A stretch of DNA of 64,000 nt from Octopus vulgaris (lineage: Eukaryota). Location of the stretch: assembly GCA_951406725.2 (NCBI GenBank), contig OX597816.1:181040001-181104000 (forward strand). The letters run 5' to 3'. The notes under the pieces were generated by a model. It did not search any database, was not told the origin of the DNA, and saw only the letters and a program-made list of their open reading frames with translations. This document shows positions 26,853 through 53,876 of the stretch, one piece after another; the first letter of the stretch is position 1, and each line of letters opens with the position of its first letter. The translations under genes were made by a program, and so were the position numbers.

Positions 26853-27007
26853 AGGCGAGCTGGCGGAAACGTTAGCACGCCAGGCGAAATGCTTATCGGT
26901 AGTTCGTCTGCCGTTACGTTCTAAGTTCAAATTCCGCCGAAGTCGACTTTGCCCTTCATTCTTTCGGGGTCGATAAATTAAGTACCAGTTACGCATTGGG
27001 GTCGATG
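26853..27007 (+). mobile_element. Family-A SINE, 3'-truncated
   Basis: ggcgagctggcggaaacgttagcacgcc..gttcaaattccgccgaagtcgac. Confidence 0.85.
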
Positions 27008-27335
27008 TACTATTCCACTATCATAAGCTAAAATACATATCTTTAATCCAGAAACGCGTATATAATTAATCAAAGCCGGGTGGATTCGTTATTTTTTCTC
27101 TTTACCTGCGCGTGTTGAGAGTGTTACTGTCTGGGAGATATCTTATGGTAGTGGAATAGTAAGTATTTAACTGCTATTTCTAAATTTCGGTATTTTTGCT
27201 GAACCTTAATTATAATTATGCTTATAATTACAGAATTTTTGTATAAGGTTACCGATAATGGTTCTTTTAACATACCGAATTACTTGGTAAAATTATTAAT
27301 TATTAATTGATTAATTAATTTTACCCTTTATTATT
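27008..27335 (+). mobile_element. PLE-like element 3' end with 20-bp 5' inverted tail
   Basis: GAAACGCGTA half-core near 27051; homologous to 49119-49450; 27008-27027 is the inverted copy of 27142-27161. Confidence 0.7.
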
Positions 27336-27649
27336 ATTATTATTATTATTACTATATTTATATACATAAAATTAATGTAGACACAGTTTGCAATTTTACA
27401 GTATAAAGGAAGACTATAATCGTCATTGAATGTGACTAGGGTGTTAGAAACATTACATTGCGAGAAATAAAAGTGTTTTCGGACAATTACAGTCCCTGTC
27501 AGTATGTATGTATACAATTATGTGCTTTGACTACAGCATTAGAACATTTTAGCTCTAATTTCTAGCAATGTAGGTGTTTCTAACACTCAAGTGACATTTA
27601 GTACATACATACATACATACATACATACATACATACATACATACATACA

Positions 27650-38238: not shown

Positions 38239-38506
38239 TGTACACGTATAGATGTATATGTATAGATGAATATATATATATATATATATATATATGTTTA
38301 TATATGTATATATGTATCTGCACATATGTGTATATATATAGATGTATATGTATGGATGTATATGTTTAGATGTACATATATATATATATATACATGTATA
38401 TATATTTACCTGGGAGACTCTTCTTATAGTAGAGGAAATAGCTAAATTCTTTGGCTGCTATTTCTAAAAGTTCTGTGTGTGGTAAAGTAATTTTTTTTTT
38501 AAACCC

Positions 38507-38554
<48 letters not shown>

Positions 38555-42867: not shown

Positions 42868-43945
42868 TTTATACACACACATTTTACCTATTATACACAC
42901 CTTTTACCTATTTCGGTTATGATATCATTTTTGAAATTCTTAAATTTTATTTTCATACAACATGACAATATGGTTTATAAACAATCGACCATAGTGCCCC
43001 TATATAAAATTTCTATTAATATCTTAGGTTTCTTGGCGTCTTCCCCCTTTAACTGGTAATTAACATCATGATTTAAAGTCTACTCCTACCCTGCCTCTTT
43101 TTATAGGCAGTTACTTATATCCAACTGACTATTCCAATGTCTTATTTCCTTCCTGGGGAAAAAGGATATATATGATAATATTTATGACAATACCTAACCA
43201 CGAACTGTCAACTAACTCTTTTTCTTTATTCAAAATAGTCTTCTAGTCTTATATGTATATATGCATGTATATATACATATATATGTAGTTGATAAAGAGA
43301 TAAATGAATTATAAATGAATTACAACCCTTACAGCCCTATGACCCCACTATGCTCTATGCGATTCTTAGAAGTTGTAAGTTGTAGTCTATTCTTAGCTAC
43401 AATAGTGACAACGTGAATTTCTTCCATCTTGCTCTGTCAAAATATTTAAGAAAAATTATATTAATGTGTTCTACTTGTTAAAATTCCATTTATTTTTTTG
43501 TGCAGCTGAAGATGTTACTGAATTTAAATTGATGTAATCATTACATTGTTTAATTAAACGGGATCGCTTGAAACGGTCTTATTCCATCACTACTTGGTAT
43601 CCTGTTGCTTATTTTGATTTATATATGTATGTATGTATTATATCTAAAATATACGTACGTTTGTCTGCGAGTGTATGTATCTGAGCGCGCGCGCTCATGT
43701 GTGTGTGTGTGTGTGAGTGTATGTACGTTTAGGTGTAAATACAGTGAAAATGTACTCAATGCATGTAACAGAGTTTATATATTCTCTCAATGCTAATGAG
43801 TCACTCATTGATACTCTGAGTGCCTCACGTGCGAGAATTCGTTGAGGCTGGATACAAAATGAAAAAGAATATGAAGGTGTGTGTGCGCGCGCGCGTGTGT
43901 GTGTACGAGTATATATATTTGTGTGTACTATATATATGTATATAT

Positions 43946-44228
43946 ATCTGTAAATATAATATGTGACAATTATTCGGTAGCCATGATAAAACTAGGAGTT
44001 TCGGATGTCGGGGCGGAAATCCACGCCGGTATCTCTTCAGTTATGGAGCCATCGAAAAAAACTGAATAACTGAAGAGATGCCGGCGTGAGTTTCCGCCTC
44101 GACATCCGAAACTCGGAGTTTTATCATGGCTACCGAATAATTGTCACATATTACATTTACAGATAAATTCCTCTACATAATATCAAGGTCTCTTTTATTC
44201 TTTTGTTGTCTTGCCATTTCTATCAATA
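43946..44228. mobile_element. PLE-like element: back-to-back HHR units (43946-44044 minus / 44066-44164 plus)
   Basis: ataa-CTGAAGA (44070)..gacatcc-GAAACTCGGAGTT-ttat; ~99-bp inverted arms; same family as 4406-4660. Confidence 0.8.
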
Positions 44229-44272
44229 CACACACACACACACGTATATATATATATTTATATATTTATATA

Positions 44273-44310
<38 letters not shown>

Positions 44311-44314
<4 letters not shown>

Positions 44315-45114
44315 CATTATATAAAAGGGCTTAGTAAAATAAATTACTTTGCCGCATACTGAACTCATTAGAAATAGCAGCTAAAAAACTTTTTTAAAAC
44401 TATTTCTAATGAGTTCAGTATGCGGCAAAGTAATTTATTTTACTAAGCCCTTTTATATAATGTAATAATTTGAATTCGCCTTAAATGGTCCCTTTGCATA
44501 CTGAACACTTAGTGAAATTGATTAATAATTAATTAATTTTACCCTCAATTGTTGAAATTATAATTAATCTCCCTCTAATTAATGCTTCGGATTTTACCGA
44601 AATAAGCATAGTGTTTGCTGATTTTAACCCACGCTGGTGGAAAAGGGAGAACAGAAATTCTTCGCTTGCATATTTGAGTTTGTTGGCACTGTTAGTTACG
44701 AGCAGATCTTCGAAAGCGATGAGAAGCCGAAAGGGTATGCTCTCACTTTCAGTGTTTTCAAATCCAAACCAAGGAGTTTCTGAGCTGATGATAGAAGTGT
44801 CGTGTTGACTAATCTTGAAACGTACGTTCTCAAATAACCTTTGCATTTGATTTTTTGATGTCTTTAACCCCAAACTTTCGTGAGTTGAGTTGAGCAAGCA
44901 CTATATGAGAGAGGTTTTCTTTAAGTATTAGAAATAGTTTTAGAAAGGTTTTTTGGCTGCTATTTCTAATGAGTTCAGTATGCGGCAAAGTAATTTATTT
45001 TACTAAGCCCTTTTATATAATGTAATAATTTGAATTCGCCTTAAATGGTCCCTTTGCATACTGAACACTTGGTGAAATTGATTAATAATTAATTAATTTT
45101 ACCCTCAATTGTTG

Positions 45115-45122
<8 letters not shown>
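44311..45122 (+). mobile_element. Retrozyme/PLE-like element: inverted tail, direct repeats and internal HHR, within (TA)n
   Basis: 44311-44377 is the inverse of 44400-44466; 44400-44562 repeats at 44960-45122; HHR at 44781-44832. Confidence 0.85.
44781..44832 (+). ncRNA. Type-I hammerhead with palindromic stem III
   Basis: tgag-CTGATGA-(aga..gtc/gac..tct)-GAAAC-GTAC-GTT-ctca. Confidence 0.8.
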
Positions 45123-45167
<45 letters not shown>

Positions 45168-45168
45168 T

Positions 45169-45320
45169 TGTTATGCCCGGGTCACGGAAGACCATTAGTT
45201 CCGCACCTATAAAGTGCGGCGCTTAACCGCATAGGTGACTTGTCAGACACGCGAGTCTCCCATACGACTAAGTGCTTTATAGGTGCAAGACTAATGGTCA
45301 CTCTCTGACCAGCCATAACA
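45169..45320. mobile_element. Foldback MITE-like element between TA tracts
   Basis: Imperfect ~48-bp inverted arms tgttatg..gaccattagt..gcacctataaag / ctttataggtgc..actaatggtc..cataaca. Confidence 0.6.
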
Positions 45321-45326
45321 ATCAAC

Positions 45327-45381
<55 letters not shown>

Positions 45382-45859
45382 GCACAGCTTTTGTCAAGTT
45401 GCGGGGAGTGGACATACATAATTGACAAATAACTTACATTTCTGAGTAAGTAGTAATAATGTACAGAAAATAATTTCCTTTGCAGAGAGTGAATTTTTTA
45501 AGTGCATAAACTATAGGAAATTCGAATTGATTATGACTATAAAGAGGTGTTAATAGAAATTCAATAGAAAGGTTCTATAATGAACAGAAAGGTGTTATAG
45601 TGAGTAGATAGGTGTTTTAACCAATAGAGGGTGTTATATGTATCAGAAAAGTGTTATAATCTATAGATAGGTGTTGTAGACAATAAAGTCTATAGTCGAT
45701 AGAGAAGTGTTAAAAACTCATAAAGAGGTGTTGTTGTTAATAGAGTTTGCAGTTAATGATATAGTAGTTATTGGAGAGGTGTTTGTGTTATATTGCAAAA
45801 TATCGAACTCAGCACTTTATGTGTCCGAAATGTAGACAATTGTAAAACTGTGTACTCAC

Positions 45860-46040
45860 CTAAATCATCGATGTGTTCAGACATTGTGAGGGAAACAATC
45901 ACCAAAAGAACGCTAACAGTCAGCATTGTCATGGAGACGATCATGACAACACGGGCGATCAACTTCTGTTTCTTAGTGGGTTCTCTCTTGGCAAAGCGTT
46001 TAACTACCTCCTTGCACCTCGTCGTTGTCCCGCTTTCCAT
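45860..46040 (-). CDS. Coding exon of an uncharacterised single-pass membrane protein (frame stays open upstream to ~46298)
   Basis: MESGTTTRCKEVVKRFAKREPTKKQKLIARVVMIVSMTMLTVSVLLVIVSLTMSEHIDDL; basic patch then hydrophobic helix; consensus donor AG|GTGAGT at 45860/45859; non-repetitive, higher GC. Confidence 0.7.
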
Positions 46041-46742
46041 TTTGTAATATATCGATTCTCCCGGTTCCAGTTGACACGAGAGGATTTCGATGGAGTCATC
46101 GTGGTCCGTTCCCAAATCTGAGTAGATCTGCAGCTCATACGGTTCATAGCTGCGCTGAGTGGAACTTCTTTCGTCGCCAGTGGAGCCACTGTCGGCTAAT
46201 TCTTCTGCAGAGGTAGCCAGCTTGAGAGAATTACAAAGAAGCCGAAGAAACCGTCCGAAACGCTGAGTTATACTCTTCACACCTGCTTTTCCCTTCCGTC
46301 ACGGTAACAGAGAAAGACGCTCGCTTTAAAGGACCTGAGGTTCCTTTGCTTTATCCTGCATCCATGTTTCTAGATTGCCTTTAGAAAACCATAATTCAAT
46401 AGTATGGGATAAAGTTAAGCAACACAGTTGCTAACGAGTCGTCCACTTTGGTTTGGTTCTATTTCTTTATCTCACATAGTACACTTTACGTTTATTTGTA
46501 TGGTAAGATACCTATTAGAGTCATTATTTTATTCATCCCATTGAAAAACTGTAAACGTTTATTTATTCTTTTAATGTGAATTCGTTGTAATGAATATCTC
46601 GAATTATTCGTTCAATTCCGTCACAGCATTTCCTTTCGAAGTCTTTTCGTTTGAAAGAAAGTTATGACATCATTAAGAAGAATTGGCAGTGAAATATTCA
46701 GGAATTCTTGAAGAACAATTATTATTGTTGTTGTTGTTGTTG

Positions 46743-46815
<73 letters not shown>

Positions 46816-47742
46816 TTTTATTACTCGTACATTCAATTGAGCGTTACCATTCAGATAAGTAAATTCTTCTGACAAGTAATATTTAAGTTATATTCATCAT
46901 GTACATTGAGAAACGCCTAAAAGATATTATCATTTTAGAGAGCGATCCAATTATGAATATATTTGTGTGTGTGTGTGTAAATTCACAGTTTTTTGGTATT
47001 CTCTTTTTCAACACCACGATATTATAGTTATGCTGTAACCAACTTCATTAACTTGAAATAACAAAGTGATAAAAAAAATTGCTAAGTACAGATTTTAGTT
47101 GATTTGCACTCATAATATCAATTACATTTCCAAGAGTAAAAGGAATCATGATGTTCCTTCAAGATACGCAATGTCACGCCTGGATAACATTTTGTCTCTT
47201 TAAGCTTTTCTGTTTTAGATTTTCAATTAAAGTGTGAACATAGAAGCACTTGAAATTATTCTATCTCATTGTAATTACACATTTTATTTCGTCTCTCCTT
47301 CAAATGAGAAAAGATTGCGTCTAGGTAGGAAGAAGCCCTTTTGTTCATTATGACAGTCTGTGGTGATGGTTGCTATGAAACTGCTTTGTCTCCAACAATG
47401 CTTGACTCTCATTTCATGTCTCACAGATCCGGTTCAGTTGGAGCCTTCACACCATTTAGCCCTGCAAAAAGAAATAATACCAATATAGGCAAGCATTGTT
47501 TCAACTAAAATAGTTTTAATACTACAGAAGCTATATTAAAAATGAGACAAAGAGATGTGTCGATTATAAAGTTCCCTTGAGACACGCAATTTCATAGCAT
47601 GTATATGGTGTCATATATCTATATACGTGTCTGTGTGTGTGTGTGTGCATGTATGTATTCATGTATTACATATTTCCGTGTGCGTGAATATATACATATG
47701 TTTATATATTTACATATGTATATATGTATGTATACATATATA

Positions 47743-47969: not shown

Positions 47970-48899
47970 CAGACATACCTATATGTATGCATGTATATGT
48001 ATGTGAATTTGTGTGTCTGTATGGGATACATGTACCCGTGCCTGTGTGTTTGTGTGTATGTGTGTGTGAGTGTGTTTGTGTGTATGTGTGTGTGTGTGTG
48101 CGGACGTGTGTATGTGTGTGTATGCGCGTGCGTATTCTAGTTCTATCTTTTGAACTTCTCGCCAATGGAAAACTAGCACGTTTCTAACCCAAAAGGAGAC
48201 TCTTTCATTCAAATTTAAACAATACCATAAGGGTATGTATGCATGTACGCGTGTGAACACTTATGTATATATGCATGTACGTATGTACATTCTTATATAC
48301 ATGTATAAATATCATAAATATATGTATATGAACATGTGTGACATATATTCATCTGTGAAAGCATAAATGCCTTTGCATATACGGATTTCAATGCCTTGAT
48401 TTATGTATGTGCACTAATGTAAGTCTGCTTGTCTTATGTATGTGCACTAATGTAAGTCTGCTTGTCTTATGTATGTGAACTTATGTATGTCTGTATTCTA
48501 CACATGTGCATATGGAATTATTACATGGTAAACTTCTGGAATGTTCTACATATTTTCAGTGTAACTTTAATGGCCTGTAGAAGTTTTTACTGGTTTTGTG
48601 AAGACCATTATCTCAAGTTTGGTGCTGAGACAGTTTGTTACATAACTACATGCGTAAATTATCTTAGCTATAAATCAAAAGCTATGGCCCAAAAGGAATA
48701 ACTGAGCTTTTCGCATTACTGCGAGATAATTTCTTTTTACCTAATCTTGATTGCTTGGTAAGAAGCTTGCTTCCCAGGCATATGGTTCCAGATTCAGTCC
48801 TACTGCGCGCAGATTGGACAAGTTTCTTGTACTATAGCCATGGATGTTTGTGAATGGATTTGGTAGACGGATACTGAAAGAATTATATATATATATATA

Positions 48900-49455
48900 T
48901 TTATAATTATGAGTATAGGGAGAATACGAGACCTCATTCGTATGTTTTGAATTCGTTGGTACTGGTCATTGGATATAGTTTGTCTGATGTTACTTGAATC
49001 AGATAGGTATGTTCAATATTTTCATTGCTCTCAAATTTAAAATCTTGAAATCTTGTGCTGATGAAGAGAATGATAGAATGAAGGTATGATTTTTGCATTT
49101 TCATATCTATCTAACTCAGAAACGCGTCCACAGGTAATCAAATGCCGAGTGAATTTTCGTTGGTTTTTCCTCTATACCTACGTGAATTGTTTTGAGTATA
49201 TGTTGTCTGGGAGTTTCTTCTTATAGTAGAAGAAATAGCTAAGATCTTTGGTTGCTATTTCTAAAGTTCGGTATGTGGCGAAGCAAATTTTGCTGAACCC
49301 TAATTATAGTTATACTCATAATTATAAAAAAATATAAAAATATATTGTTTAAATTTAACGAAAATGGTCCTTTTAACATGCCGAATACTACTTGGGGGAA
49401 TTATTAATTACTAATTAATTAATTAATTAATTTTACCCTTTATTATTATTGATAA
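48900..49455 (+). mobile_element. PLE-like HHR element with 18-bp 5' inverted tail
   Basis: 48900-48917 is the inverse of 49311-49328; HHR inside; tail shared with 27050-27335, 38410-38510 and 44950-45122. Confidence 0.8.
49052..49134 (+). ncRNA. Type-I hammerhead with extended stem II
   Basis: cttgtg-CTGATGA-(gag..gataga.atgaa/ttcat.tctatc..ctc)-GAAAC-GC-GTC-cacagg. Confidence 0.8.
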
Positions 49456-52774: not shown

Positions 52775-53876
52775 TCTATATATATAAAACTATAGTTGTG
52801 TGAGTGTCTGTCCTCTTCGATTTAGATTCCTAACTAGTCCCACATTTTGCGGTGCAGTTTAGCCAAATTCGGGTATCTTATATCGAGCCCGTCTGGGTAT
52901 TAGCGCGCGTCTACGATGAGTGTACGATTTAAAAAATAATTTAACATCATTTTTTATTCCATTTTAATGCATATTTTTTCGTGTGTCGATGGCGGCGGAG
53001 TTGGCGTCCATGGTCACACCTGCACCTGTTTGCTTCTCCCTCTTCTTCCCTCCCTCGTGAAGCTGTGGGGAAGGGAGTGTAAGGAAATCAACGTCGTAAT
53101 GCGTTGTGAAGGAGACCAGCGTTCTTTTAGAACAACGACTTCATGGCTTGAAGTCGCCAAAACAGAAATCGCTAAAAAAGCTGAAACAGATCCACAAAAA
53201 CGGCAAAAACCGCCACACAGGGCAGGTTTCCTGTGCAAACAATTTGCACAACCGAATGTTTTAGTTGTTGCACAAATCTTTATATATAAAAGTAAGTTGT
53301 GTGTCTGTCTCCTACGATTTAGATTCCTAACTACTCCCACATTTTGCGGTGCAGTGTAACCAAAACCGGGTATCTTATAGTCGTGATTCATATCGAGCCC
53401 TTCTGGGTATTAGCGCACGTCTACGATGAGTCTACGATTAAAAAAAAAATTACCATCATTTTTTATTCCATTTTAATGCATTTTTCGCTATTATATAAGG
53501 GAAGTAACTCTCTAAAAATGTCTACGATGAGTCAACGATTAAAAAAAAATTACCATCATTTTTTATTCCATTTTAATGCATTTTTCGCTATTATATAAGG
53601 GAAGTAACACTCTAAAAATGTCTACGATGAGTCAACGATTAAAAAAAAAATTACCATCATTTTTTATTCCATTTTAATGCATTTTTCGCTATTATATAAG
53701 GGAAGTAACTCTCTAAAAATGTCTACGATGAGTCAACGATTAAAAAAAAAATTACTATCATTTTTTATTCCATTTTTAATGCATTTTTTGCTATTTTTTT
53801 TTGCTATAACTCACTAAAAATGCTTATATAGTTATTTCCCTTACAAACCCGGAGCAACGCCGGGCGATACTGCTAG
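52775..53876 (+). mobile_element. Composite non-autonomous Helitron with two 5' ends and an internal ~100-bp tandem array
   Basis: A|TC at 52775, second TC head at 53277, repeat units at 53419/53520/53620/53721, hairpin cccggagcaacgccggg then CTAG|T at 53873-53877. Confidence 0.88.

What the first reader, a model, noticed from the sequence alone, without database searches (positions are those of the whole stretch)
44311..45122. Complete-looking ~560-nt retrozyme-like unit with terminal redundancy and inverted tail
The layout is (TA)n, 67-bp inverted tail, 163-bp repeat, ~400-bp body with an intact HHR, 163-bp repeat, (TA)n. The repeats are almost identical, so the insertion is recent. Terminal redundancy is what reverse transcription of a circular or tandem RNA of ~560 nt would leave, and no RT is encoded. 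This is the best single exemplar of the system.
Basis: partly seen in the sequence, partly recalled or inferred. Interest (0 to 1): 0.75.

Follow-up and report, generated by a model that had tools for sequence, protein, structure and literature searches.

The report
Penelope-mobilised hammerhead retrozyme, single copy
This is one young copy of a widespread, protein-free 560-base jumping repeat that carries a predicted self-cutting RNA motif; the kind (animal retrozyme) is known, and the fixed ends of its many copies suggest that a Penelope-type enzyme likely pastes it into TA repeats from two start points.

Summary
The layout is real: (TA)n, inverted arm, 163-bp repeats 560 bp apart (1 mismatch), a type I hammerhead, no coding frame. 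The repeat is not a terminal repeat. The direct arm is 1.29 turns of a 560-bp unit that occurs genome-wide (1,281 and 1,817 exact marker hits) in arrays of up to 12 units. 149 of 160 arms end at one of two fixed unit sites about 100 nt apart, and 54 of 63 two-armed insertions use one of each: the Penelope 'tail' footprint. Each insertion carries one haplotype (0.4-0.5% within, 1.4% between loci), which favours one RNA monomer, likely a circle. The inverted part is 90-100 nt, not 67, and is a second arm, not the tail. With one ribozyme (GUU site, U-U at stem II) this copy is a dead end, not the best exemplar. Cleavage, circles and the partner element are unshown. It is a new member of a known kind, and this scan reported the same pattern before for other families in this genome.

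The parts
44245..44310 (.). left (TA)n target tract
44311..44410 (-). inverted arm (unit positions ~528-560 plus 1-67/70); its outer end is fixed site S1
44400..44410 (.). 11-nt microhomology shared by both arms at the inversion junction, supplied by the unit's own hairpin
   Evidence: sequence
44400..45122 (+). direct arm, 1.29 units (723 nt), ending at fixed site S2
44400..44959 (+). one 560-bp unit, non-coding, about 34% G+C, folds better than shuffles (z -4.6)
44400..44562 (+). first copy of the 163-bp redundancy (start of the second turn, 5'-truncated)
44960..45122 (+). second copy of the 163-bp redundancy
44781..44832 (+). type I hammerhead motif: 4-bp stem I, CUGAUGA core 44785-44791, U-U then 3-bp base of stem II, GAAAC 44817-44821, palindromic stem III, GUU triplet; predicted cut after 44828
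   Evidence: activity untested
44923..44970 (+). hairpin of the conserved 3' module; carries three A>G changes (44943, 44947, 44955) absent from this copy's inverted arm
44973..45066 (+). predicted long stem (44973-44983 with 45056-45066) enclosing site S1; kept with paired changes in sibling families
   Evidence: (by eye)
45019..45031 (+). site S1 (unit 60-72): fixed outer end of one arm in most two-armed copies
45025..45122 (+). ~100-nt 'tail' between S1 and S2; S2 (unit 159-163) is the other fixed end
45119..45165 (.). right (TA)n target tract

Best explanation
This is a 5'-truncated, two-armed insertion of a young non-coding 560-bp hammerhead repeat (an animal non-LTR retrozyme), likely written into a TA microsatellite by the enzyme of a Penelope-like element that likely primed both cut DNA strands at two fixed sites of one RNA monomer, probably a circle. 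Shown: constant period, arrays, no ORF, two fixed 3' ends about 100 nt apart, one of each per two-armed insertion, TA flanks, one haplotype per insertion. Inferred: multi-unit arrays are transcribed; their hammerheads (palindromic stem III, likely acting as dimers) cut out monomers that a host ligase closes; a PLE RT/GIY-YIG protein recognises the conserved 3' stem module, nicks (TA)n on both strands and starts cDNA at S2 on one strand and S1 on the other; the two cDNAs stop at variable points and are joined head to head (here through an 11-nt microhomology). The S2 arm here ran 723 nt, so 163 nt were copied twice. Odds by step: retrozyme class 0.9; PLE machinery 0.85; two independent starts 0.75; monomer circle as the usual template 0.55.
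For: Period 556-561 in 110 of 111 full units; arrays up to 12 units. 0 of 52 position-sampled loci and 0 of 39 best-match loci continue into a PLE ORF. 149 of 160 arms end at S1 or S2; 54 of 63 inversion junctions pair S1 with S2, 1 S2+S2, 0 S1+S1, 8 other. (TA)4+ beside 143 of 149 such ends versus 1 of 11 other ends. The S1 arm is longer than the S2 arm in 14 of 54, which fold-back copying cannot give. Divergence 0.39% within an arm, 0.52% between arms, 1.43% between loci; 26 of 32 loci show no fixed arm difference; 18 alleles private to one sampled locus sit in all its covering units. 40 of 79 S1/S2 arms in the position sample pass the predicted cut site. An autonomous 781-aa RT+GIY-YIG PLE in this genome shows the same habit: TA target, two fixed 3' ends ~40 bp apart, partial tandems. 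Literature: PLE tail, inverted 5'-truncated copy and TA bias (PMC8557442); two internal RT start sites bound the tail and both strands are cut and extended (PMC11167929); retrozymes as PLE passengers (PMC7229834; bioRxiv 10.64898/2026.07.22.740005).
Against: No autonomous partner sharing the 3' module was found among the GIY-YIG loci fetched; the 781-aa family's 3' end scores like shuffles (621 of 1000 as high). The ~100-nt tail is longer than the 30-40 bp in print. The ribozyme looks weak (GUU, U-U, fold not minimal). This copy's two arms differ at three clustered A>G sites where one circle would give the same letters. In the position sample 18 of 33 junctions join both arms at the same unit position, which fits a linear RNA end or a fold-back better than a circle. 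Two- to four-unit periodic variants in long arrays (L036, L041, L045, L050) point to later DNA-level expansion, so array length alone does not prove rolling-circle copying.
Confidence: 0.7

Rival explanations
1. Same element and same enzyme, but the template is an uncut linear multi-unit transcript; no circle is needed.
For: Weak-looking ribozyme; uncut RNA was the dominant substrate for a PLE in vitro (PMC11167929); 18 of 33 junctions in the same phase; this copy's arms differ at three A>G sites; source arrays are homogeneous, so read-through would also give near-identical units.
Against: Family polymorphisms are fixed within nearly every locus (3% discordance versus 19% between loci), which needs a one-monomer bottleneck in each lineage; related animal retrozymes do make circles (PMC7229834).
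Confidence: 0.3
2. The inverted arm is made by fold-back second-strand synthesis on the S2 cDNA, stopping at S1; there is only one priming event.
For: 18 of 33 position-sampled junctions are near-perfect palindromes (binomial p about 1e-9); arms share a haplotype.
Against: S1 arm longer than S2 arm in 14 of 54; S1-only insertions exist (L044, L068, L166, L197); same-phase excess absent in the best-match set (3 of 30). May apply to short copies only.
Confidence: 0.2
3. A 5'-truncated pLTR of an autonomous PLE with no fixed unit.
For: PLE-type tail, inversion and TA target; pieces of PLE ORFs lie within a few kb at 5 of 52 sampled loci.
Against: Upstream of the 3' module every long copy returns to the same 560-bp unit; the nearby ORF pieces are cut off by TA tracts or other sequence; no ORF in the unit.
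Confidence: 0.05
4. A satellite or DNA-transposed unit spread without an RNA step.
For: Periodic variants show DNA-level expansion of some long arrays; no family-wide A>G excess.
Against: Dispersed over many chromosomes with fixed 3' ends, variable 5' truncation and PLE-like inversions; ribozyme core kept with change at free positions (cut-site base U or A, never G, in the 100 places listed).
Confidence: 0.04

Closest known systems
Animal non-LTR retrozymes (Cervera & de la Pena 2020, PMC7229834, parts 2-4 of 6 read; Li, Clavereau & Pollet 2026, bioRxiv 10.64898/2026.07.22.740005, parts 1-3 of 5 read)
   Same: Non-coding tandem unit with a type I hammerhead, low G+C, monomers to multimers, self-paired predicted RNA, PLEs in the same genome. 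The U-U at the base of stem II with a 2-bp stem III resembles axolotl HHR_Amex2, which cleaves better as a dimer.
   Different: Unit 545-563 bp, above the 150-450 bp of the 2020 paper but inside the 51-972 bp of the 2026 preprint; GUU/GUA site; cleavage and circles untested here; the two fixed ends and two-armed layout are not described in the parts read.
Penelope-like elements, Neptune/Naiad type and non-autonomous Chlamys such as MRC1 (Craig et al. 2021, PMC8557442, passages seen)
   Same: Partial tandems forming pLTRs, inverted 5'-truncated copy, tail at one end only, (TA)n targets, multicopy head-to-tail non-autonomous forms.
   Different: No RT or GIY-YIG; tail ~100 nt rather than 30-40; no 3' sequence match to an autonomous family found.
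Poseidon PLE of Anolis in vitro (Frangieh et al. 2024, PMC11167929, parts 1-2 of 4 read)
   Same: Two internal RT start sites bounding the tail; AT-rich target; both strands cut and extended.
   Different: There the start sites are not homologous to the target and lie in an AC-rich stem-loop; here both ends sit in TA-like words of the unit, so exact junctions are blurred.
Plant LTR retrozymes (described in the two retrozyme papers above)
   Same: Non-autonomous, hammerhead-bearing, apparent terminal redundancy.
   Different: Type III ribozyme inside both LTRs and 4-bp TSDs there; here one type I ribozyme outside the redundancy, whose length varies between copies.

Membership tests
animal non-LTR retrozyme | type I hammerhead motif in each unit | tested here: met
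   core in window; 228 motif matches in the fetched loci, 147 identical; Rfam gathering search blank
animal non-LTR retrozyme | tandem unit of a few hundred bp, monomers to multimers | tested here: met
animal non-LTR retrozyme | no protein coding, G+C under 50% | tested here: met
animal non-LTR retrozyme | highly self-paired monomer RNA (predicted) | tested here: met
   z -4.63, 0 of 100 shuffles as stable
animal non-LTR retrozyme | two consecutive ribozymes in the element ('active' by Li et al.) | tested here: not met
   this copy has one; other loci have up to 12
animal non-LTR retrozyme | self-cleavage | not testable with these tools
   needs in vitro transcription
animal non-LTR retrozyme | circular monomer RNA in vivo | not testable with these tools
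   only assembled contigs were offered, and genomic tandems hold the same junction
animal non-LTR retrozyme | target-site duplication | tested here: inconclusive
   both flanks are (TA)n, so a duplication cannot be read
autonomous Penelope-like element | ORF with RT and GIY-YIG | tested here: not met
Penelope-type insertion | partial tandem, 5' truncation, inverted copy | tested here: met
   63 inversion junctions in 91 loci
Penelope-type insertion | tail between two fixed 3' ends, on one end only | tested here: met
   54 of 63 junctions S1+S2; length ~100 nt, not 30-40
Penelope-type insertion | 3' sequence shared with an autonomous partner | tested here: inconclusive
   none among the loci fetched from 148 listed of 6,136 GIY-YIG candidates
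plant LTR retrozyme | type III hammerhead in both fixed-length LTRs | tested here: not met

The most novel reading that the evidence does not exclude
Each two-armed insertion records one PLE complex priming both target strands at two fixed sites of a single small RNA circle, with an unusually long ~100-nt tail set by a conserved RNA stem module shared by a whole clade of 545-600-nt retrozymes; and this copy has fixed three A-to-I edits of its RNA template into the genome on one arm only.
Probability: 0.35. Interest if true: 0.6.

Novelty: new member of a known kind. Interest (0 to 1): 0.33.

Why it matters
Retrozyme mobilisation by PLEs is proposed in print from co-occurrence and pLTR likeness. 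A young family with over a thousand units, two sharp 3' ends and one haplotype per insertion gives genomic footprints that predict exactly where a PLE enzyme should start on this RNA, so the route is directly testable. The single copy itself is ordinary, and earlier notes of this scan describe the same footprint for other families of this genome.

Tried and rejected
Rfam at gathering score: 0 matches in the window. Partner search: GIY-YIG scan (148 matches, 150 of 6,136 candidates scored), 30 loci plus 13, 19 and 20 wider stretches compared with the unit; hits were neighbouring sibling repeats nested in the same TA tracts. One search used a stretch that proved to be the 781-aa family's own 3' region and added nothing. 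Two sibling families are themselves ~555-600-bp circularly permuted non-coding units; the middle's output was cut, so I saw its per-locus table for only the first 30 of 60 loci. A decayed PLE abutting a sibling (L282) and a weak hit in L307 showed no shared 3' module. Family-wide RNA editing: rejected, A>G 10 versus T>C 14 among 106 unit-private changes, 4 versus 6 among array-wide ones. 5' ends piling at the ribozyme cut: 9 of 160 against 4.9 expected, inconclusive. Expression: no RNA holder listed on record; contigs of five runs guessed to be RNA (X1, X2, X4, X5, X9) cover parts of the unit, but contigs cannot show ends, strand or circles, and the flank used as a silent control was itself covered in X2. 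Insertion polymorphism could not be read because contigs break in the TA tracts. L183 was dropped from counts as a near-duplicate of L182 (52 loci fetched, 51 counted). Paper searches: the listing for octopus + hammerhead + ribozyme (7 of 8 shown) has no title on such a family; supplements of the bioRxiv preprint were not seen and may list related families.

Full report
Observation. The window holds (TA)n at 44245-44310 and 45119-45165, a 163-bp direct repeat at 44400-44562 and 44960-45122 with one mismatch, and between them a 397-bp body with a type I hammerhead motif (44781-44832). The inverted segment is longer than reported: 44308-44410 matches 44927-45029 over 103 nt at 96%, so it spans the junction of the 560-bp unit, and its last 11 nt are also the first 11 nt of the direct arm. 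No frame exceeds 123 codons without a stop, also when the unit is read round and round, and neither long frame matches Pfam.

The ribozyme. All core letters are present, with a 4-bp stem I, a U-U pair at the base of stem II, a palindromic stem III and a GUU site. GUU is listed as an active NUH site (PMC3138052, passages), and short palindromic stem III motifs are described as working in dimers (PMC4209133, passages). Rfam does not call it. The constrained hammerhead fold scores -3.0 kcal/mol against -7.9 for the free fold, and two copies of the stem III region pair at -13.0. Its 3' half occurs 1,817 times in the genome with 0 control hits; the cut-site base is U in 71 and A in 29 of the 100 places listed, never G. 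Activity is untested.

The family. A search of the own genome gave 1,647 candidates, 40 scored, 156 matches, many in 560-bp tandems. In the 39 other best-match loci arrays reach 12 units and 110 of 111 full units measure 556-561 bp. A 28-mer of the 3' end has 1,281 exact places. Its first 100 places on contig C1 fall into 52 loci, all fetched (12 with only 1.5-kb flanks); they add subfamilies of 544-547 and 563 bp, and none continues into a PLE ORF. ORF pieces lie nearby at 5 of them, cut off by TA tracts or unrelated sequence. The 163-bp redundancy is simply 0.29 of a further turn.

The ends. Of 160 arms, 86 end at unit 150-166 (S2, mostly 159-163) and 63 at unit 55-78 (S1, mostly 60-72); 143 of these 149 abut (TA)4 or more, against 1 of the 11 other ends. 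Of 63 head-to-head junctions 54 pair S1 with S2, one pairs S2 with S2, none S1 with S1. This is the PLE pattern of an inverted copy and a tail at one end (PMC8557442, passages), and the tail is known to lie between two RT start sites (PMC11167929, parts 1-2 of 4). So the true tail here is the ~100 nt at 45025-45122. In the position sample 18 of 33 junctions join both arms within 30 nt of the same unit position (3.6 expected); in the best-match set, chosen for long arms, 3 of 30 do. The S1 arm is the longer one in 14 of 54, so S1 is likely a real start and not only a fold-back stop. An autonomous 781-aa RT+GIY-YIG element, intact at several places, has the same habits with a ~40-bp tail, but its 3' end is no closer to the unit than shuffles. 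The partner remains unidentified.

The template. Over 47 loci of the 560 subfamily, units differ by 0.39% within an arm, 0.52% between arms of one locus and 1.43% between loci; 26 of 32 testable loci have no fixed difference between arms. Eighteen alleles seen in only one sampled locus are present in all its covering units, up to 11 of 11. This favours one monomer per insertion, as a circle would give. Against it: homogeneous parent arrays would give much the same through read-through RNA; variants repeating every two to four units in four long arrays indicate later DNA-level growth; same-phase junctions suit a linear end; and in this very copy the direct arm has G at 44943, 44947 and 44955 where its inverted arm and the family have A. 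That triple is unique in the genome, with two loci carrying two of the three. It looks like A-to-I editing of a hairpin (inference), but there is no family-wide A>G excess and one of the G alleles occurs in other subfamilies, so it stays a lead.

Wider clade. Diverged siblings (62-75% alike over the 3' part) keep the hairpin, a long stem around S1 with paired changes seen by eye, and both end sites; two were followed and are also circularly permuted non-coding units, one with a ~555-bp period. The monomer and its 3' part fold better than shuffles (z -4.6 and -3.6).

Comparison and verdict. It works like, and by every feature testable here is, an animal non-LTR retrozyme family (PMC7229834, parts 2-4 of 6), a class already argued to be non-autonomous PLE derivatives (bioRxiv 10.64898/2026.07.22.740005, parts 1-3 of 5). 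This copy has a single ribozyme and fails that preprint's definition of an active element. The searches run (listings only) showed no title on this family or on the S1+S2 rule for retrozymes. Earlier notes of this scan report the same reading for 359-360, 483-495 and ~590-bp families of this genome (249 notes fit the first look-up, 8 shown); none matched this sequence. My reading was fixed before I saw them. Those notes call the animal a cephalopod; I did not test that. Verdict: new member of a known kind, interest 0.33.

Noticed in passing
window 43942-44168: A separate 227-bp near-palindrome (103-nt arms, 92%) beside TA repeats, with a CUGAAGA-type hammerhead core in each arm; a relative lies at about 4501 (-). 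Looks like a short two-armed insertion of another family.
   Followed up: no
window 45166-45329: A 164-bp imperfect palindrome between two TA tracts directly right of the element; older dispersed family, 570 candidates, 73-91% alike.
   Followed up: partly
window 48890-49450, 27000-27350, 38410-38516: Diverged siblings with the same 3' module; the first belongs to a family with 2,350 candidates and its own hammerhead motif.
   Followed up: partly
window 503, 33220, 36437, 14370, 63111: Further CTGANGA...GAAAC motif matches, some probably chance.
   Followed up: no
L106:1745-4088 and L113-L131: Young autonomous Neptune-like PLE (CxxxxCxxC motif before GIY-YIG; clade label from PMC8557442) with an intact 781-aa ORF, a UUGAUAA-core hammerhead variant, a ~40-bp tail and a second upstream ORF of ~360 aa.
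   Followed up: partly
window 45390-47460: Covered by contigs of run X2 (guessed RNA) with five T>C differences not seen in run X17: possibly an edited minus-strand transcript over the flank; different individuals, so only a hint.
   Followed up: no
window 44739: One contig of run X9 begins here on the + strand behind letters that resemble a template-switch adapter (label recalled): a possible RNA 5' end 46 nt before the ribozyme core; single contig.
   Followed up: no
L036, L041, L045, L050: Variants recurring every 2-4 units inside long arrays: higher-order repeats, or assembly effects.
   Followed up: partly
window 53419-53795: A 101-bp unit in 3.7 copies at 97% identity.
   Followed up: no
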